The notes: generated by a model not told the origin, from the sequence alone. Positions 47,628 to 55,712 are shown, counted from the stretch's first letter. The stretch: DNA of 56,220 nucleotides from Promethearchaeota archaeon (GCA_016840165.1 JAEOSU010000041.1:1-56220); one strand, 5' to 3'. Numbers and translations are program-made.

Positions 47628-49010
47628 ATGGATTTTTCTATGAGTAAAGAAACGATTTTAAGTGATTTAGAAGAGATTGTCGGTAAGGATTTTGCCTCAA
47701 ACAAAAAGGAGGATTTATTCATCTATTCCTTGGATCCGGGAGCATCTCTTCCAAGAGAGGTGGATTATGTTGTTATGCCTAATTCTGTTGAAGAAGTACA
47801 GAAAATAGTAAAACTTGCGAATAAAGAAAGAATTCCCATAGTTCCTATGGGAGGGGGTTTAACCTTGAGTGGATTGGTGATACCAGTAAAGGGAGGGATA
47901 GTGTTGGATATGAAAAGGATGGATAGGATAGTCGAAATCAACGAATATAGTAAATATGCACTTATAGAATCCGGAGTTACCACGGGTCAATTACTTGCTT
48001 ATTTAAATGAGAATTATCCCGATCTGCAACCACCAGTCCCCGATGCACCTGCTGCTGCCACTGTTGCTGGAAATGTGTTAATTCATGGATCAGGATATTT
48101 ATCACAGAAATATGGTGATCATGGATCAATGATAAATGGATTAGAGGTAGTTCTACCCAATGGAGATATTTGTAAAGTGGGCTCTTGTTCCCTCTCTAAA
48201 TATTGGTTTACGAGAGGTCCAATTCCTGACCTAATTGGATTATTTACTAGTTCTTTTGGGACTTTAGGAATTGTAACAAAACTTTCCGTTAAATTATTTT
48301 ATAAACCCAAATTCAGAGAAGTTGTATTTGGATTGGCAACCGATTTTGATGATCTTCCTAATATTTTGTCAAAAGTCATCGAATCAGGTTTAGCAGAGGA
48401 TGTGTTACTTGGAATGCAGGACAAACCCGATTGGATGAAGGGCTATATTTTTGTCATAGTATATGTTACCGGGGAATCACAAGATGAAATAGATACTAAT
48501 ACTAAAGTACTAAAAAAGATTTATCGTAAAACGAACGCAAGATATATGAAAACACCTCCCAGAATACGAGAAATTTATATGGAGAAACCGATTTTTGCCG
48601 CAACTGCCGCAGATTTTAGAAAAGGAGGCGGTTTTGAGTACGTTGGAGCTTTTATACCTTTAGAGAACATACCTGAAGCATATAAAGGAGGAGTGGAAAT
48701 CTCTAAAAGGCATGGTATTATTCCAACGATTGGATCACGTCTTATCGGGCAAACTCATACTGTTATGGTTTTTTTCTCATATTCTTTCAATCGAGCCGAT
48801 CCTGAGGACATGAAGAATGCGAGAGACGCTCTTCATGAAACAAATATTTTAGCGCTAGAATTGGGAGGAATTCCATGGAAGGCAGAAATAGCTGGTCAAA
48901 AGCTTATCCTTGAAAAAATGGACCCTAATTTTAAAAAGTTATTTAAAACCATACGCGATATATTGGATCCTAATCATATTATGAATCCAGGAAATTGGGA
49001 GGTAGAATAA
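47628..49010 (+). CDS. FAD-binding oxidoreductase (GlcD-like), paralog of 36912-38387
   Basis: VVMP.S.EEVQ, GGG..LSG, GGIVLDMKRM, GLEVVLPNG, GTLGIVTK, DPNHIMNPG. Confidence 0.88.
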   Translation: MDFSMSKETILSDLEEIVGKDFASNKKEDLFIYSLDPGASLPREVDYVVMPNSVEEVQKIVKLANKERIPIVPMGGGLTLSGLVIPVKGGIVLDMKRMDRIVEINEYSKYALIESGVTTGQLLAYLNENYPDLQPPVPDAPAAATVAGNVLIHGSGYLSQKYGDHGSMINGLEVVLPNGDICKVGSCSLSKYWFTRGPIPDLIGLFTSSFGTLGIVTKLSVKLFYKPKFREVVFGLATDFDDLPNILSKVIESGLAEDVLLGMQDKPDWMKGYIFVIVYVTGESQDEIDTNTKVLKKIYRKTNARYMKTPPRIREIYMEKPIFAATAADFRKGGGFEYVGAFIPLENIPEAYKGGVEISKRHGIIPTIGSRLIGQTHTVMVFFSYSFNRADPEDMKNARDALHETNILALELGGIPWKAEIAGQKLILEKMDPNFKKLFKTIRDILDPNHIMNPGNWEVE

Positions 49011-49013
49011 CTG

Positions 49014-50189
49014 ATGACTGTCCAGAATGAAAAAGATTGGAAGGATATTATCCATAGATGTTTCAGATGCGGTTATTGTAAGTTCACCTATGATTATTCC
49101 GATTTTAATTGTCCAAGTTATAAAAAATTTCGATTTGAAACGTATAGTACAGGAGGACGAATGTGGCTTACTTTTGGTGCTATTAATGGCGATATCGAGT
49201 GGAGTGAAGGTATTGCCAATGTGCTTTATGCCTGCCCCACCTGTGGTAATTGTATGGAGAACTGTCGATTTGAAAAATTCAACTTTATGCTTGTTGATTT
49301 TATAGAAGCTGCTCGAGCAGAAGCAAATAAGAACGGTTTTTGTCCTGAGAATCAAAAATTCCTATTGGGACGTACCACGAATAAATCCTATTTTAATCCA
49401 TATGCTGAGAAAAATTCTGATAATGAAGATCTTAAAATAAAACATGATCTGCCTGATGAAGCGGAATGGGTTTATTTTATTGGATGTACAAGTAATTATC
49501 GTCAGAAAGATCTGAGAGATGCCACTTTACGATTTCTGAAAAAGGCAGGAATCAATTTCACACTATATGATGAACATTGCTGTACCAGTCCATTAATAAG
49601 AACCGGTCAACTTTCTCCAGTAAATGATTTCATGAACTATAATATTCAAAAGATCAAAGCAGTGGGAGCTAAAAAAGTTATTACCTCATGTGCGGGATGC
49701 TATCGAACATTGAAGAATGATTTTGCCAAACATGGTGTAGATCATGATTTAGAGATTTATCATACTTCAGAATTGATATTACAACTTCTAAAGGAAGAGA
49801 AATTGAAATTTTCATCAGAATTTCATAAGAAAGTAACATATCATGACCCTTGTCATTTAGGAAGACACTCTGGTTTATATGAAGAACCAAGAGAAGTCTA
49901 TAAGCAAATACCTGGAATTGAATTTATTGAAATGAAACGAAATAGGGAAAATGCGTGGTGCTGCGGTGCAGGGGGAGGAGTAAAGATTGGATATCCTGAT
50001 TGGTCAATTGAAATCTCCAAAGAACGGTTAGAAGAAGCTAAAGAAACTGGCGCGACCATTGTATCATCCACATGTCCTTTCTGTCGAACTAATTTAAGTG
50101 ATGCTAATAAGGCATTCGATATGGGATTTGAAGTTTTAGATCTCGTAGAAATTATAGATCAACTAGAATATGAGGTAATAAAAGAATAA
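49014..50189 (+). CDS. GlcF/HdrD-like Fe-S oxidoreductase, paralog of 38387-39565
   Basis: CFRCGYC, CPTCGNC, YHDPCHLGRH, WCCGAGGGVKIGYPDWSIEISKERLEEAKETGA. Confidence 0.9.
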   Translation: MTVQNEKDWKDIIHRCFRCGYCKFTYDYSDFNCPSYKKFRFETYSTGGRMWLTFGAINGDIEWSEGIANVLYACPTCGNCMENCRFEKFNFMLVDFIEAARAEANKNGFCPENQKFLLGRTTNKSYFNPYAEKNSDNEDLKIKHDLPDEAEWVYFIGCTSNYRQKDLRDATLRFLKKAGINFTLYDEHCCTSPLIRTGQLSPVNDFMNYNIQKIKAVGAKKVITSCAGCYRTLKNDFAKHGVDHDLEIYHTSELILQLLKEEKLKFSSEFHKKVTYHDPCHLGRHSGLYEEPREVYKQIPGIEFIEMKRNRENAWCCGAGGGVKIGYPDWSIEISKERLEEAKETGATIVSSTCPFCRTNLSDANKAFDMGFEVLDLVEIIDQLEYEVIKE

Positions 50190-50199
50190 AAAAAAGAAA

Positions 50200-51222
50200 T
50201 TAATAATCTAGCTGTTCTCCAAGAGCCATTCGACAAAGATCACTTAACAAATAATTTTTTAATCCTTTTCTCTCTACTCTTGAACCCATGGTTTCCCAAC
50301 AAAATGGACAATTATAAAAACATATTTCAGCACCATGGTCAATCATATCCTGAATATTTTTGTCTTGAACTTTTCTCATCTCTTTGGATCGGCTAAAAGC
50401 TGAGAGAATCCCAGCACAACATAAGGCATTTTCCCGATCGTATTTCCTTTCTACTCGTTCAACCCCAATTAACTCACAAATTTTATCAATCCACTCATCT
50501 ATTTCCGGGCTAAATCGATTGGAGCAAGGTCGTTGATATGCTACTTTTTTATTGAGTTTTTGAATCTCCGATTCATGTTCTTTCAAGTAATTATAGAGAT
50601 ATTCAAATAAATGTATAGCTTTAAAATCTGGAGGGAGTTCAATATTATTGCGGGGACAATATGAATTATAGAATCCATAACATTCATCATGGAAACAAAT
50701 CATTTCTTTTATTCCTTGTTGTTTTATTGCATCAATGATAATTGGTGCTCGTTCCATTATTACTGAATCTCTAGCATAATGATGGTAGACTAAGTTACAG
50801 AAATAATTGAGTCCAGCGACATATTGTAAATTCTCGAATATAGGTCCTTGCATATTTCTAGCATGAGATTTAGGAAAAGCACATTTATTTAACACCGGTT
50901 TGTTGGGATCGATTTCTTTAAGGCGCAACTCATCATAAGGTTTGTATCTTCTCACTATAGCTTCTACACCAGCAGGGTTGGCAGGTAAAGAGTTATATTT
51001 TTCTTGAAGTCCTGTAATTAAATCAAATGGATGAGAATCATAAGGACAATATTCATCACATGCAAAACATGTGATACATTCGCTTAGGACTCTTGACTCC
51101 TTTTCCTCAATCATTTTAGCTATTTCTAATCTTGCTTGCTCCGTATTTTCAAAATCAATCCATTGACACCTGGATAAGCAATCTACATTTTTACATTCTA
51201 CACAATGCGATTTATCAAACAT
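50200..51222 (-). CDS. Fe-S binding protein with CCG domain
   Basis: CVEC...C..RC, CITCFACDEYCP, YQRPCS, LCCAG, CPFC. Confidence 0.85.
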   Translation of the reverse strand: MFDKSHCVECKNVDCLSRCQWIDFENTEQARLEIAKMIEEKESRVLSECITCFACDEYCPYDSHPFDLITGLQEKYNSLPANPAGVEAIVRRYKPYDELRLKEIDPNKPVLNKCAFPKSHARNMQGPIFENLQYVAGLNYFCNLVYHHYARDSVIMERAPIIIDAIKQQGIKEMICFHDECYGFYNSYCPRNNIELPPDFKAIHLFEYLYNYLKEHESEIQKLNKKVAYQRPCSNRFSPEIDEWIDKICELIGVERVERKYDRENALCCAGILSAFSRSKEMRKVQDKNIQDMIDHGAEICFYNCPFCWETMGSRVERKGLKNYLLSDLCRMALGEQLDY

Positions 51223-51313: not shown

Positions 51314-51857
51314 TTAATCCTCTAAAATAAACTCCCAAGCACAATAATATTCTTTAGGATGAGAATCAGGAGGACAACAAATACAATTGGTTTTGATACG
51401 AGGATCAATGGTTTTCGCAAAATCGCCATATTCTATAACACCTACAGGTTTACAGGGAAAATCAGGAAGATTTCTAGTATTACGAGCATATTGAACCCGA
51501 CAATTATTCATGCGGAATACACATCGCTTCTCGGAAATCTCTACGATTTCTTGAACATTAATATTGGCATATACGCGATATTTTAGCGCTTTTACCAAGG
51601 CAGGAATACCTCCATGTTCGGGGATATTAAATCGCTTCATAATACGTTTCGCTTCAATTATGGTAAATCTTTTCCATTGGTCTACGTCTAATTCTATTGC
51701 CTTTTCTAATCCATATTCTTTCTCGACTGTCTGGAACCAGGTTATGGTTTTAAAGGTATCTTTAATAATTTCCATCTATTGCCAGCCAGTTTTTAGAAAG
51801 ATCTTCAATATAATCGAGCAATTCCTCTTTCGTTAGTCCAACTAAATCTTCTCTCAT
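51314..51857 (-). CDS. DUF6125-like protein, 171 aa, in two exons (51770-51857 and 51314-51741)
   Basis: Exon 1 MREDLVGLTKEELLDYIEDLSKNWLAIDG and exon 2 TWFQTVEKEYGLEKAIELD...CRVQ.AR....LPDFPCKPVG...C..CPPD.HP..YYCAWEF join into a W.A.DG.WF motif once 28 nt are removed. Confidence 0.82.
51742..51769 (-). other. Candidate 28-nt bulge-helix-bulge (BHB) mRNA intron
   Basis: Intron ATTATTAAAGATACCTTTAAAACCATAA. Central helix AUGG/CCAU with 3-nt bulges AAA and AAC, intron stem UUAAAG/CUUUAA, exon-exon helix with 8 of 10 pairs. Canonical cleavage restores the frame. Confidence 0.8.
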
Positions 51858-51963: not shown

Positions 51964-54255
51964 TTAAGGTGTATGTGTCCCGTCGCCATCGTAAATTGTC
52001 CAACTAAACGTATCCACAATGTATTGTCTCGCGTCAGCGGGAGCACCGGGTGATGTACAGTGAGAATTTCCCGCATTGAAAGTCACCCCGTTTTGTAAGA
52101 TTAAACTCGACCACCCGAGTAATAAGCTGTCATAATTCGCGGTTGATAATGTAACCCCATTAAGCATGCCATCCATACTAGTTACTTGCGAAACATTCCA
52201 GCTTCCCAAATCTTGATCGAAAGATGATGCTCCAGAGAACATATATTGCAAATTTTCTACACCGGAAACATCCCAATCACCTATATCTTGATTAAATACT
52301 CCAGCATGGTCAAACATCATATTCATGTTTTTAACACTAGATATATCCCATTGTCCGATATCTTGATTAAAGGAGGTCGCAAAAGCAAACATCGAGTTCA
52401 TATAAATTACATTGGAAACATCCCATCCTCCTATATCTTGATCGAAGGAGGACGCTCCAGAGAACATATAGGTCATATAGTCCACATTGGATACATCCCA
52501 ATTGCTAATATTTTGATTAAAGGATTGATCTCCCATGAACATATACCTCATATCTGTGACACTAGATACGTTCCAATTATCAATAGACCCATTAAAATTA
52601 GTTTCTCCAAACATCCACAGCATTTTAGTTACTTTAGAGACATCCCAATTATTCAAATTCTGGTTGAAGCTATCAGCATGATAGAACATTGAACTCATAT
52701 GAGTTACATTTGATACATTCCATCCTCCAATGTCTTGATTGAACACATAAGCATTATCAAACATACCAAACATATTTATGACATTTGAGACATTCCAATT
52801 ACCGATATCTTGATTGAAAATTTCAGCACGCTCAAACATAGAGCCCATATCAGTAACACTTGAGACATCCCAATCGCTAATACTTTGATTAAAGGAAGCA
52901 GTACCCTCAAACATGGAGCTCATATCAGTAACACTTGATACATCCCAATTACCAATAGCGCCATTAAATAATCCAGCACTAGTAAACATATAACTCATAT
53001 CAGTGACACTTGAGACATCCCAATTGTTAAGATCTTGATTGAAAGCGGAAGCTTCATAGAACATACGATTCATATCAGCCACGCTTGAAACATCCCAATT
53101 GTTAATACTTTGATTGAAAGAATCAGTATCCTCAAACATTTGAGACATATCAGTAACACTTGAAACATTCCATCCTCCAATATATTGATTAAAGGATACG
53201 GTAGCCCTGAACATATCGTGCATACTAATAACACTTGATACATCCCAATCTCCAATATCTTGATTAAATGTATCAGCATTATTGAACATCCCGTACATAC
53301 TAGTAACACTTGAGACATCCCAATCTCCGATATCTTGATTGAATAGATCAGCCCCTTCAAACATACCAAACATATTTATGACACTTGACACATTCCATCC
53401 TCCAATATCTTGATTAAAGGAAGTTGCATAAGCAAACATAAACATCATATCCTCGACACTTGAAACGTCCCAATCACCAATATTCTGGTTAAATGACGTA
53501 GCCTTAGAGAACATATGATTCATATCAGTAACACTTGAAACATCCCAATTGCAAATATCTTGATTAAATGCTTCAGCGTAATCAAACATATAGCTCATAT
53601 CCCTTACGCTTGAAACGTCCCAATCTGCAATATCTTGATTGAAATTTTGGGCTCTAAAAAATAAACCAGCCATATTTATTACACTTGAGACATCCCATTC
53701 ATTCATATTAATCAATTCATTAATATTAGAGCAAAAGGAAAAGGCATATTCCAAATTGGTTGTCTCATTTAAATCTAAAATATCGGTCGCACTAATATTA
53801 AGATTTTGACATCCATAAAAATATCTTCCAGAATTTCCTAATCGTAAATCACCCCATTGTTTAATTTCAATCAATTTTAATTTATCTCCTTCACTATTGA
53901 ATCGCCAACCAGCGATCTGTCCTAATATATTAATAGTGTAGACCCCCTCTAGATGATAAGTATGTGTCACTTCTACTTGATCCCAACTTGTAATCGTATC
54001 GGAAGTTTCATCACCCCATTCTATATAGAAATTATACATTCCTGAAGATTCCAGAGGTAACTTTACTTGATTGCTATTACTTGATCCCGAATTAGTTAAT
54101 GTCGTATTCCACACAGATATAAATGGATTCCCAGTTATAGGTCCATTATCATTTCCTCCACCAGGAGGTTGTATAAAAGCAAATAATAATCCAACGGAAA
54201 TGCCAGCTACAATTAAAACGGGGACAATTAGCGCAAGAATTTTTTTCTTATTCAT
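51964..54255 (-). CDS. Membrane-anchored BspA/DUF285-type repeat surface protein
   Basis: N-terminal signal/TM, PKD-like WGD segment, QWG, 21 counted W(D/N)(V/I)S repeats (FNQ.I..WDVS.V..M..MF), NYD.LL.GW. Confidence 0.9.
52180..53705 (-). repeat. Coding tandem repeat, about 75-bp (25-aa) period, about 21 degenerate units (boundaries approximate)
   Basis: Recurrent plus-strand acttgagacatcccaat...atcttgattaaa...aacat units. Confidence 0.85.
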
Positions 54256-54422: not shown

Positions 54423-55712
54423 CTATAGCAATGTTTGAGCAAAAAGCTTGATCTTCTCTCGGATTATCTTCTCTGAAGCAAATCGCGCATCTCCCACATC
54501 TACATCTATTAAAAGCATAGGAATTCCCACTTCATCTCTTAAGGCCTCCCTAAGGATTTGAGGGACACTCCCAAATTGTTTACACCCAATATGAGACGTG
54601 AAGATAAAGCAGTCTGCAGAGTAATCCTTGGCTAATCTTACACAATCATCAATAAACGGATAATAAAATTCTGCGGATTGCTTAGTCATAGGAGCCTCCA
54701 TTGCCTTTTTAGCCATACCATAAAACATCGTATCGTCATCGGATTTGGTATCAACGAGATCCGCAAAATTGTAATTGAAAATATCAAACAATATGGACAT
54801 TCCCAACTCTCGATCAGCCCATTCACATAGTGCTAGGTCAAAGAAAATTATCATGTAGGGCCAGATGCTACGAATTTTTTCCTCACCACCGTAATGAACT
54901 CCTCTCTTATACCTCTTTTTCGCGATATCGAGCATATCTCTATAGAAGTTAAGTTTTTCCTCCCTTCCAGAGAGATAAATTGCCGCTGCGGCTGCCATCG
55001 CATTAAACATATTCTCTACAGGTGAGGGTACCGCCTTTTTCAGCTCGAACAATTCTAATTGCAGAGTAGTGACATTGTTTTCTATCTCTAAAACTTTCCT
55101 AAGGCGTTCATAATCTGGTTCTTGCCCTATAACTTCGCCTAACTTTTCCAAACTGAGTCTGATTTGTTCGCCATGATAATGATAGCTTTTCTCTTCTTTC
55201 AAAAAAGGAAGGTCAGGTGCAAGGAGCGGAATTTTCTTATGGTATTGGAAGAAAGGATATGAGGCATATGTATTATCACATGGTGCGGTAGGTGTGATAA
55301 TCGCATCGAATTTAAATAAATCGTCCAATGTCATGCCAAGAACGCCCTTCTGACTCGAGCATGTATGGAAGGGATGTCCCCAGTTAGTAATTAGATCATA
55401 AAACGGTTCTGAGCCATGAGGTAGCAATGCTGCTAAAAGATATGAGGTTGCTTCAATACAAACGGGAACGCAATCAAAGCAGTAAAGATATTCGGTAGGA
55501 AAAGAGAAATGGTGGCCAATAATTGGTAAACCCTCTCCTGATTTGTCTATAAAGTCTTTCATAACAGTTTTGATATATTCTAATCCTATTCTAAGTGAGG
55601 GAATTCCAGTTTCAGGCAGAATACCTTTTACTAATCCATGAGTACCCTCAATTGCTTCGTAAAGCATCTTATATGGTATTATCCGGTTCTCTAATAATTC
55701 CCTAATTGCCAC
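54423..55712 (-). CDS. 2-hydroxyacyl-CoA dehydratase subunit (HgdA/B, FldB/C family)
   Basis: P.E....FD..P...E, TCS..KG, APCD, HIGCKQ, GIPML.ID.D.GD.R. Confidence 0.88.
   Translation of the reverse strand: MAIRELLENRIIPYKMLYEAIEGTHGLVKGILPETGIPSLRIGLEYIKTVMKDFIDKSGEGLPIIGHHFSFPTEYLYCFDCVPVCIEATSYLLAALLPHGSEPFYDLITNWGHPFHTCSSQKGVLGMTLDDLFKFDAIITPTAPCDNTYASYPFFQYHKKIPLLAPDLPFLKEEKSYHYHGEQIRLSLEKLGEVIGQEPDYERLRKVLEIENNVTTLQLELFELKKAVPSPVENMFNAMAAAAAIYLSGREEKLNFYRDMLDIAKKRYKRGVHYGGEEKIRSIWPYMIIFFDLALCEWADRELGMSILFDIFNYNFADLVDTKSDDDTMFYGMAKKAMEAPMTKQSAEFYYPFIDDCVRLAKDYSADCFIFTSHIGCKQFGSVPQILREALRDEVGIPMLLIDVDVGDARFASEKIIREKIKLFAQTLL

What the first reader, a model, noticed from the sequence alone, without database searches (positions are those of the whole stretch)
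51731..51785. Canonical bulge-helix-bulge intron inside a protein-coding gene of a probable Asgard archaeon
Seen in sequence: the minus strand reads CUGGCAAUAG-AUGG-AA^A-UUAUUAAAG-AUAC-CUUUAAAA-CCAU-AA^C-CUGGUUCCAG. This gives a 4-bp helix (AUGG/CCAU) flanked by two 3-nt bulges, an intron hairpin (UUAAAG/CUUUAA) and an exon-exon helix with 8 of 10 pairs. Cutting after the second base of each bulge removes exactly 28 nt (51742-51769) and yields ...AUA GAU GGA ACC UGG UUC (IDGTWF). That fuses a 29-codon upstream ORF with the downstream ORF into one 171-aa protein; unspliced, the frame stops after 31 aa (IDGNY*). Established: archaeal tRNA splicing endonuclease (EndA) cuts BHB motifs at these positions and RtcB ligates; the classic mRNA example is crenarchaeal cbf5. 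Inference: this is non-spliceosomal mRNA splicing in the lineage closest to eukaryotes, in a gene family where I know of no described intron. A random insertion is unlikely to give both correct BHB geometry and exact frame restoration.
Basis: partly seen in the sequence, partly recalled or inferred. Interest (0 to 1): 0.95.

Follow-up and report, generated by a model that had tools for sequence, protein, structure and literature searches.

The report
tRNA-type mini-intron splits Asgard DUF6125 gene
A 28-base insert shaped like a tRNA intron interrupts a conserved gene of unknown function in a Lokiarchaeia (Asgard) archaeon. Comparison with relatives indicates that it must be cut out of the mRNA before the protein can be made, which published work shows inside a coding sequence only for the crenarchaeal cbf5 gene.

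Summary
On the minus strand a DUF6125 (PF19620) gene is split by 28 nt (51769-51742). The insert folds as a 4-bp helix (AUGG/CCAU) between two 3-nt bulges, with an intron hairpin and an exon-exon helix.

Cutting after the second base of each bulge gives a 171-aa protein. Its junction, AIDG-T-WFQ, is the invariant sequence of more than 100 intronless 171-aa homologs.

The same insert (28 or 29 nt) sits at the same site in about 18 distinct Lokiarchaeia sequences:
- Every full-length carrier keeps an intact spliced reading frame.
- Both exons are under purifying selection (dN/dS 0.11 and 0.07).
- The intron hairpin shows compensatory changes.
- Carriers prefer synonymous codons that pair in the exon helix.
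- Carriers are scattered in the gene tree, and an intronless allele is 97.7% identical, which implies repeated precise loss or gain.

The genome encodes two EndA paralogs and RtcB. I also verified similar inserts in its aEF-2, RNase HII and mevalonate kinase genes.

No spliced RNA has been seen, so splicing itself is inferred. I found no paper on Asgard mRNA BHB introns. This scan has flagged the same kind of intron before, in other Lokiarchaeia genes on other DNA. Verdict: a real, new member of a known kind.

The parts
51770..51857 (-). Exon 1 of the DUF6125 gene: ATG at 51857, 29 codons (MREDLV...NWLAIDG) plus the first base (A, 51770) of the Thr junction codon
   Evidence: Matches Pfam PF19620 profile positions 3-24. 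dN/dS is 0.11 among carriers.
51742..51769 (-). 28-nt BHB-type intron, which carries an in-frame TAA as its third codon in the exon-1 frame
   Evidence: Homologous 28/29-nt inserts lie at the same site in about 18 distinct sequences. There is no related copy elsewhere in the genome.
51314..51741 (-). Exon 2 of the DUF6125 gene: CC of the Thr codon, then WFQTVEK...EFILED and the stop codon
   Evidence: Matches PF19620 profile positions 26-164 of 164, E 2.5e-68. dN/dS is 0.07.
51772..51775 (-). Central helix H, 5' strand (AUGG). It is exonic and overlaps the codons GAU GG
   Evidence: Pairs with 51744-51747. 94.4% of cells are paired across 18 carriers.
51744..51747 (-). Central helix H, 3' strand (CCAU), intronic
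   Evidence: G-C changes to G-U at one pair; the outer A-U pair is broken in 4 of 18 carriers.
51769..51771 (-). 5' bulge AAA, with the predicted cut between 51770 and 51769
   Evidence: Geometry. The first two bases are AA in all 18 carriers.
51741..51743 (-). 3' bulge AAC, with the predicted cut between 51742 and 51741
   Evidence: AAC is invariant in 18 carriers. It is a 3-nt bulge in the minimum-free-energy fold.
51748..51768 (-). Intron hairpin h': 2 bp, one bulged A, 6 bp, and the loop AUAC
   Evidence: 96.5% of cells are paired, and 4 of 8 pairs have changes on both sides (U-A/G-C/A-U, A-U/G-C, U-A/C-G). RNAalifold recovers it independently.
51776..51785 (-). Outer exon helix h, 5' strand (CUGGCAAUAG)
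   Evidence: 8 of 10 positions pair in the window, but only 61% of cells pair across carriers. Carriers prefer synonymous codons that pair here.
51731..51740 (-). Outer exon helix h, 3' strand (CUGGUUCCAG)
50200..51222 (-). Downstream neighbour: a CCG (HdrD-like cysteine-rich) domain protein, which is the conserved partner of DUF6125
   Evidence: The same neighbour is present in L001-L006.
54423..55712 (-). Upstream HGD-D (2-hydroxyacyl-CoA dehydratase D-component-like) gene of the conserved cluster. In this genome it is separated from DUF6125 by a DUF285 repeat gene (51964-54255)
   Evidence: for the usual gene order.

Best explanation
The 28 nt at 51769-51742 are a bulge-helix-bulge (tRNA-type) intron inside the coding sequence of a DUF6125 gene.

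Proposed mechanism:
1. The pre-mRNA folds so that exonic AUGG pairs with intronic CCAU.
2. This places a 3-nt bulge on each strand, next to an intron hairpin and a short exon-exon helix.
3. The host's two-subunit splicing endonuclease EndA cuts after the second base of each bulge.
4. RtcB joins the exons and probably circularises the intron.
5. The ligated mRNA reads ...AUA GAU GGA ACC UGG UUC... and encodes the full 171-aa protein.
6. Unspliced RNA would give only a 31-aa peptide, because a stop codon lies three codons into the intron.

Shown here: the motif, the exact restoration of the conserved junction, conservation and covariation of the insert, selection on both exons, and the presence of the enzymes.

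Inferred: that EndA and RtcB actually act on this RNA, and how efficiently.

The intron is old within one Lokiarchaeia family and has been lost precisely, or regained, many times.
For: 1. Junction. Exon 1 matches PF19620 profile positions 3-24 and exon 2 matches 26-164. More than 100 homologs are 171 aa with contiguous NWLAIDGTWFQ. I27, D28, G29, T30, W31, F32 and Q33 are invariant in 20 diverse homologs.

2. Recurrence.
- Protein-level searches found 28/29-nt inserts at the same site in G000, G142, G114, G131, G095, G084 and a second copy in G110, and in L001-L006.
- A DNA pattern scan added 14 metagenome contigs; 20 other pattern hits were unrelated chance matches.
- Inserts of 28 and 29 nt restore the frame only if the whole insert is removed.

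3. Function retained. All full-length carriers give intact 171-177-aa spliced ORFs. Among carriers dN/dS is 0.11 for exon 1 and 0.07 for exon 2.

4. RNA structure.
- Hairpin: 96.5% of cells paired, with changes on both sides at 4 of 8 pairs.
- Central helix: 94.4% of cells paired.
- Covariation score 0.210 against 0.109 for shuffles (0 of 500 reach it), and it is best at slide 0.
- RNAalifold recovers the hairpin, three central-helix pairs and the 5' bulge on its own.

5. Exon bases that pair are selected in carriers. Carriers versus intronless:
- Ile ATA 10/13 vs 9/70
- Thr ACC 9/13 vs 8/70
- Leu NNG 8/13 vs 4/70
- Ala GCC 8/13 vs 6/70
Fisher p is about 1e-5 for each; the sequences are not phylogenetically independent.

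6. Machinery. The genome has two tRNA_int_endo paralogs and one RtcB. Asgard archaea are reported to have (alpha-beta)2 EndA with the L1 loop that confers broad specificity (PMC5829648).

7. Not an isolated case. In the same genome, aEF-2 (the only hit), RNase HII and mevalonate kinase carry 30-31-nt inserts. Removing them restores TDSD|DEEQERGIT, GIDEAGR|GPVIGP and ILFGE|HFVVYG. The aEF-2 and mevalonate kinase inserts have 4-bp helices and 3-nt bulges at the right positions.

8. Precedent. The cbf5 pre-mRNA intron is cut by EndA between the second and third bulge residues and was lost in some lineages (PMC2738675).
Against: - No transcript, circular intron or peptide evidence was available, so splicing itself is unobserved.
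- The motif is thermodynamically weak: almost all pairs are A-U, and the constrained BHB energy is about -1.7 kcal/mol.
- The outer exon helix is poorly conserved (61% of cells paired).
- In carriers with the Ala codon GCC, RNAalifold prefers a shifted outer helix, which turns the 3' bulge into a 5-nt internal loop.
- The outer A-U pair of the central helix is broken in 4 of 18 carriers.
- Only about 6 of 110 class genomes that have the gene carry the insert.
- A genome-wide BHB-plus-ORF-fusion scan showed no excess over decoy cut positions. Such motifs are not statistically detectable without homology.
Confidence: 0.87

Rival explanations
1. Pseudogene: a 28-nt insertion inactivated the gene, and the resemblance to a BHB motif is a coincidence.
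For: The gene is interrupted and gene callers split it. One carrier copy, the first copy in G110, really is truncated at 103 aa.
Against: About 16 diverged carriers keep both exons intact, with dN/dS 0.07-0.11 while dS exceeds 1. The insert itself is conserved, with compensatory changes. Carriers show their own codon bias at the pairing exon bases.
Confidence: 0.03
2. No splicing: exon 2 is translated alone from an internal start (the ATG inside AUGG gives the 153-aa ORF at 51775-51314), and exon 1 is a separate small ORF or leader.
For: In the 28-nt carriers the ATG of the central helix is in frame with exon 2, and databases hold the 153-aa call.
Against: - In 29-nt carriers that ATG is out of frame and hits a stop. 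Gene callers had to use TTG or non-standard starts there.
- Exon 1 is under purifying selection in its own frame.
- Exon 1 carries invariant domain residues W24, I27, D28 and G29 that belong to the Pfam profile.
- This reading does not explain the conserved hairpin or the codon bias.
Confidence: 0.04
3. Translational recoding: ribosomes bypass or frameshift across the insert, as in T4 gene 60 or the mitochondrial 'byp' elements, so that no RNA cutting is needed.
For: There is a short insert with a hairpin and a stop codon just after the take-off region. From my own knowledge, gene 60 bypassing uses a GGA take-off codon.
Against: - There is no matching landing codon: no GGN lies before ACC UGG.
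- 28-nt and 29-nt inserts would need different frame changes.
- What is conserved is the set of positions that define a BHB: a 4-bp helix with AA at the start of both bulges.
- The same genome has in-frame inserts with the same geometry.
Confidence: 0.03
4. Assembly or sequencing artefact, or a DNA-level mobile mini-element that is excised from the DNA.
For: Nothing specific. The window comes from a metagenome-assembled genome with 6.3% estimated contamination.
Against: Homologous inserts are found in independent NCBI, JGI and ENA assemblies. The insert sequence is single-copy in the genome. It has no terminal repeats beyond AA.
Confidence: 0.01

Closest known systems
cbf5 (pseudouridine synthase) pre-mRNA intron of Crenarchaeota (Watanabe 2002; Yokobori 2009, PMC2738675)
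   Same: - A short BHB-type intron inside a coding sequence.
- Predicted cuts between the second and third bulge residues.
- Often a relaxed motif, handled by a hetero-oligomeric EndA.
- Sits in a highly conserved protein motif.
- Patchy distribution, with lineage-specific precise loss.
   Different: - A different gene (DUF6125, function unknown) and a different phylum (Asgard/Lokiarchaeia).
- Splicing of cbf5 was shown by cDNA and in vitro cleavage; here it is inferred.
- Presence and absence alternate among very close alleles (97.7% identity), with at least 6 changes on the gene tree.
- The host genome carries further interrupted genes.
Archaeal tRNA and rRNA BHB introns (hBHBh' motif, Marck and Grosjean 2003)
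   Same: The same motif geometry and presumably the same enzymes. The host is rich in tRNA introns: ARAGORN recognises only 13 tRNA genes in a 99.7% complete genome, 8 of them with introns. This agrees with bioRxiv 10.64898/2026.10.13.758758 on Asgard tRNA genes.
   Different: The substrate is an mRNA. Exon sequence is constrained by coding as well as by pairing, and removing the intron changes the reading frame.
BHB intron in the 5' UTR of Haloferax volcanii HVO_1309 mRNA (PMC7714728)
   Same: An mRNA processed by EndA, confirmed in vitro; the authors call it a new mRNA substrate.
   Different: That intron lies in the 5' UTR and does not interrupt the coding sequence.
HAC1/XBP1 unconventional mRNA splicing in eukaryotes (IRE1 cut, RtcB or Trl1 ligation) - recalled from memory, not tested here
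   Same: Works alike in outline: a very short non-spliceosomal intron (26 nt in XBP1) whose removal shifts the reading frame. RtcB is the ligase in metazoans.
   Different: The endonuclease is IRE1, not EndA/TSEN. The recognition motif is two stem-loops, not a BHB. That splicing is stress-regulated, and no regulation is shown here. This is an analogy only.

Membership tests
Archaeal BHB (EndA-dependent) intron | [quoted passage not shown] | tested here: met
   AUGG/CCAU with bulges AAA and AAC in the window. The central helix is 94.4% paired in 18 carriers, and its outer pair is broken in 4 of them.
Archaeal BHB (EndA-dependent) intron | Cutting after the second bulge base on each strand yields the functional product | tested here: met
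   This gives a 171-aa ORF whose junction AIDG-T-WFQ equals the invariant sequence of intronless homologs. The same rule restores the frame for the 29-nt variants.
Archaeal BHB (EndA-dependent) intron | Flanking helices: intron helix h' and exon helix h | tested here: inconclusive
   h' is met strongly (96.5% paired, 4 of 8 pairs covary). h is 8 of 10 in the window but 61% across carriers, and an alternative register exists. Codon bias supports pairing. In several carriers this is a relaxed motif.
Archaeal BHB (EndA-dependent) intron | The host encodes the splicing endonuclease and an RNA ligase | tested here: met
   Two PF01974 paralogs (C14 and C4) and one RtcB (C64).
Archaeal BHB (EndA-dependent) intron | Cleavage by EndA and ligation are demonstrated (spliced RNA, circular intron) | not testable with these tools
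   No RNA data were within reach. The exact spliced protein could not be looked up, because it has no reference and long sequences may not be typed in.
DUF6125 (Pfam PF19620) | A match to the family profile above the gathering score over its full length | tested here: met
   Exon 2: 229.6 bits (cut-off 27), profile 26-164 of 164. Exon 1: profile 3-24, 17.4 bits on its own. The two together cover the profile without a gap.
Translational bypass element (T4 gene 60 type) | Matched take-off and landing codons flanking the gap | tested here: not met
   The take-off codon would be GGA, and no GGN codon precedes ACC UGG at the 3' end.

The most novel reading that the evidence does not exclude
The DUF6125 intron is one member of a lineage-wide set of EndA/RtcB-spliced mini-introns in Lokiarchaeia protein-coding genes. 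The set would include essential genes such as aEF-2, mevalonate kinase and RNase HII. Its members would be gained and lost rapidly, and would persist at invariant protein motifs because half of the splicing motif is exon sequence. If so, the closest archaeal relatives of eukaryotes routinely depend on enzymatic pre-mRNA splicing, and some of these introns may act as frame-switching expression gates.
Probability: 0.55. Interest if true: 0.9.

Novelty: new member of a known kind. Interest (0 to 1): 0.78.

Why it matters
In the papers I could search, a BHB intron inside an archaeal coding sequence is documented only for cbf5 of Crenarchaeota; PMC7714728 said so as of 2020.

This case extends that kind of intron to Asgard archaea and to a new gene family. 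Its comparative support is unusually complete: covariation, selection on both exons, codon-level selection for exon pairing, and presence/absence polymorphism among near-identical alleles.

Practical consequence: gene callers mis-annotate these genes as truncated proteins of 143-160 aa. Several such entries are in public databases.

Conceptual consequences: together with the interrupted aEF-2, RNase HII and mevalonate kinase genes of the same genome, it suggests that mRNA splicing by the tRNA-splicing machinery is a regular part of gene expression in some Lokiarchaeia. That bears on how introns spread and are lost in the lineage nearest to eukaryotes. It can be tested directly in cultured or enriched Lokiarchaeia.

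Tried and rejected
1. Strict de novo genome scan (4-bp central helix, at least 2 bp in each flanking helix, ORF fusion). It gave 23,804 raw candidates. The true intron scored only -1.7 kcal/mol, so energy ranking does not discriminate. The scan also missed the aEF-2, RNase HII and mevalonate kinase inserts, because their exon helix is only 1 bp.

2. Relaxed scan compared with decoy cut positions shifted by 1-2 nt. About 2,870 ORF junctions were found for the canonical geometry and for each decoy alike. There was still no excess after also requiring A-rich bulges. A census of mRNA introns cannot be made this way; it needs homology or RNA data.

3. Mobile-element idea. The 28-mer has no relative elsewhere in the genome at up to 3 mismatches, and only chance-like hits at 5-6.

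4. Rfam gave no hit in the window at gathering thresholds.

5. Search for a spliced transcript in public protein collections. The nearest 171-aa entry (P0129, 167 of 171 identical) lies on a 3.7-kb contig with genes on both strands, so it is probably genomic DNA of an intronless strain. Its DNA could not be fetched.

6. Reverse-transcriptase idea for intron loss in G110. The 4.5 kb between its truncated carrier copy and its intact intronless copy encodes an SNF2 helicase and a SWIM protein, not a reverse transcriptase.

7. Seven literature searches found no report of BHB introns in Asgard mRNAs. The library lacks most subscription journals, so this is not proof that none exists.

Full report
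**The observation**

The minus strand between 51857 and 51314 holds a gene in two pieces.
- An ATG at 51857 opens 29 codons ending ...NWLAIDG. Read on unspliced, this frame stops after two more codons (31 aa).
- A second frame runs from 51741 to a stop at 51316-51314.
- Between the pieces lie 28 nt (51769-51742).

Unconstrained folding of 67 nt gives the same 4-bp helix, the 3-nt 3' bulge and the hairpin. The energy is only mildly better than shuffles (z -1.98), as expected for an almost pure A-U structure in a 32% GC genome.

**The gene**

Exon 2 matches Pfam DUF6125 (PF19620) at profile positions 26-164 of 164 (E 2.5e-68). The 29-aa exon 1 matches positions 3-24, so the two pieces abut on the profile.

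A search of the large protein collection returned more than 2,000 relatives. The best 120 are nearly all 171 aa, from Promethearchaeota/Lokiarchaeota and related Asgard bins. They read NWLAIDGTWFQ without interruption. I27, D28, G29, T30, W31, F32 and Q33 are invariant in 20 diverse members.

Cutting after the second base of each bulge joins GGA-A to CC-UGG. This gives exactly that sequence and a 171-aa product.

**Recurrence**

A few database homologs were oddly short (143 or 160 aa) and began with unrelated residues that ran into TWFQ. Their contigs show a 29-nt insert at the same place.

A protein search of 161 genomes of the class found the gene in 110. In six of them (G000, G142, G114 and G131 in the window's genus; G095 and G084 in another genus), and in a second copy in G110, the match starts at residue 27-30. 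All of these have a 28- or 29-nt insert between GAUGGAA and C-N-UGG.

A DNA pattern scan of metagenome contigs added 14 more carriers among 34 hits. The other 20 hits were unrelated chance matches.

All 80 best genome loci are intronless and contiguous.

Two insert lengths that differ by one base both restore the frame only when the whole insert is removed. Simple frameshifting cannot account for that.

**The gene is still in use**

Every full-length carrier gives an intact spliced ORF of 171-177 aa. The only exception is the first G110 copy, which is truncated.

Among 15 carriers, dN/dS is 0.11 for exon 1 and 0.07 for exon 2, with synonymous divergence above 1. Exon 1 is therefore translated in its own frame as part of a constrained protein, in lineages that have carried the insert for a long time.

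**The RNA structure is under selection**

On 18 distinct carrier sequences (A4):
- The intron hairpin is paired in 96.5% of cells. Four of its eight pairs have changes on both sides; for example, one pair is U-A, G-C or A-U.
- The central helix is paired in 94.4% of cells.
- The covariation score is 0.210 against 0.109 for shuffles (0 of 500 reach it), and it peaks at slide 0.
- RNAalifold, with no guidance, recovers the hairpin with its bulged base, three central pairs and the 5' bulge.

The exon half of the motif cannot covary freely, but its synonymous sites can. Carriers versus intronless genes:
- Ile ATA: 10 of 13 vs 9 of 70
- Thr ACC: 9 of 13 vs 8 of 70
- Leu codons ending in G: 8 of 13 vs 4 of 70
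- Ala GCC: 8 of 13 vs 6 of 70

ATA and ACC create the two pairs next to the 3' bulge in the canonical register. GCC favours a shifted outer helix, which RNAalifold prefers.

The outer helix is thus real but variable. Several carriers have a relaxed motif rather than a textbook one. That fits the report that Asgard EndA is the (alpha-beta)2 type with the L1 loop associated with broad specificity (PMC5829648).

In 17 of 18 carriers a stop codon lies three codons into the intron in the exon-1 frame (read).

**The machinery and the genomic setting**

The genome (3.6 Mb, 99.7% complete) has two EndA-domain paralogs and one RtcB. ARAGORN recognises only 13 tRNA genes, 8 of them with introns. This is consistent with the heavily interrupted tRNA genes described for Asgard archaea (bioRxiv 10.64898/2026.10.13.758758).

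Earlier notes of this scan pointed to other interrupted genes in the same genome. I tested three.
- **aEF-2.** The only hit (C1:7785-9965) has an in-frame TAA.
- **RNase HII.** The only gene has two in-frame TAA codons.
- **Mevalonate kinase.** The match starts at profile position 11.

In the sequence, inserts of 30, 30 and 31 nt separate TDSD from DEEQERGIT, GIDEAGR from GPVIGP, and ILFGE from HFVVYG. The aEF-2 and mevalonate kinase inserts have 4-bp helices (UCAG/CUGA, GGCG/CGUC) with 3-nt bulges at exactly the frame-restoring positions.

Across 98 high-quality genomes of the class, one EF-2 paralog has in-frame stops in at least 15. I did not inspect those individually.

An essential single-copy gene that is interrupted in this way argues strongly that these inserts are removed from the RNA.

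**History**

On a maximum-likelihood tree of 53 proteins the 16 carriers are scattered. Well-supported branches force at least 6 changes, and the most parsimonious count is 10.
- The window's protein is sister to the intact intronless copy of G110.
- An intronless database entry is 167 of 171 identical to the predicted spliced product.
- Within one 90%-identity cluster, both carrier calls (153 aa) and intronless calls (171 aa) occur.

The inserts are clearly homologous and sit at one site. The simplest history is therefore one old gain followed by repeated precise loss, or replacement by intronless alleles. Repeated gain at one site cannot be excluded.

The insert is single-copy in the genome.

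**Rivals**

- Pseudogene: contradicted by selection on both exons and on the structure.
- Separate translation of exon 2: fails because the in-frame ATG exists only in the 28-nt variants, and because exon 1 is constrained.
- Translational bypassing: lacks a landing codon and would need two different frame changes.
- Artefact: excluded by the independent assemblies.

**What is known**

PMC7714728 states that, besides a 5' UTR intron in Haloferax, only the crenarchaeal cbf5 mRNA has a reported BHB intron. PMC2738675 describes that intron as follows:
- the motif is relaxed;
- the cuts fall between the second and third bulge residues;
- the intron lies inside the catalytic codon;
- it was lost in some lineages.

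The present case matches that description point for point, in a different phylum and gene. Seven literature searches found nothing on Asgard mRNA introns.

Other agents of this scan have reported the same kind of mini-intron in other Lokiarchaeia genes on other DNA: lsrF, RNase HII, a PurM-like gene, an E1-like gene, a GTPase and a zinc-binding protein. I did not test those reports, apart from finding the RNase HII insert in this genome.

**Limits**

Splicing is inferred; I had no RNA or peptide data. My attempts to count such introns genome-wide without homology failed, because background ORF fusions swamp any signal.

**Verdict**

This is a real feature, very probably an EndA/RtcB-spliced pre-mRNA intron. 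It is a new member of a known but very rare kind.

Noticed in passing
own genome G000:C1:7785-9965 (outside the window): The only aEF-2 match in the genome has a 30-nt insert with an in-frame TAA between TDSD and DEEQERGIT. Its geometry is BHB-like: helix UCAG/CUGA, bulges AUU and AAG, and a 5-bp intron stem. In 98 high-quality genomes of the class, one EF-2 paralog has in-frame stops in at least 15.
   Followed up: partly
own genome G000:C100:6666-7295 and G000:C87:6180-7062 (outside the window): RNase HII is interrupted by 30 nt with two TAA codons inside GIDEAGR|GPVIGP. Mevalonate kinase is interrupted by 31 nt (helix GGCG/CGUC, bulges AAA and AAC) inside ILFGE|HFVVYG.
   Followed up: partly
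own genome, whole: ARAGORN finds only 13 tRNA genes in a 99.7% complete genome, 8 of them with introns. Most tRNA genes are probably too interrupted for it to recognise.
   Followed up: no
L096 (G110:C180:2500-8600): One contig carries three things in a row: a truncated intron-bearing DUF6125 copy (103 aa when spliced), then about 4.5 kb with an SNF2 helicase and a SWIM zinc-finger gene on the other strand, then an intact intronless copy with its own promoter region. This looks like an intronless allele replacing a decaying carrier copy.
   Followed up: partly
window 51964-54255 (-): A 763-aa DUF285/BspA-type repeat protein (PF03382, E 8e-211) sits between the HGD-D gene and DUF6125. In other loci the order is HGD-D, HGD-D, DUF6125, CCG protein, so this gene looks like an insertion into a conserved cluster.
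   Followed up: partly
alignment A4, columns 27-29 (window 51764-51762): In 17 of 18 carriers a TAA or TGA lies exactly three codons into the intron in the exon-1 frame, overlapping the hairpin stem. Unspliced mRNA would therefore give only a peptide of about 31 aa.
   Followed up: no
public protein databases (P0017, P0025, P0099, P0123, P0124, P0127, P0132): Carrier genes are annotated as 143-, 153- or 160-aa proteins whose N-termini are translated intron or out-of-frame exon 1. This is a systematic mis-annotation caused by the intron.
   Followed up: yes
window 47628-50189 (+): An FAD-binding oxidase gene (PF01565/PF02913) is followed by an Fe-S/CCG protein (Fer4_8 plus two CCG domains), a glycolate-oxidase or D-lactate-dehydrogenase-like pair. 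They are convergent with the DUF6125/CCG genes.
   Followed up: no
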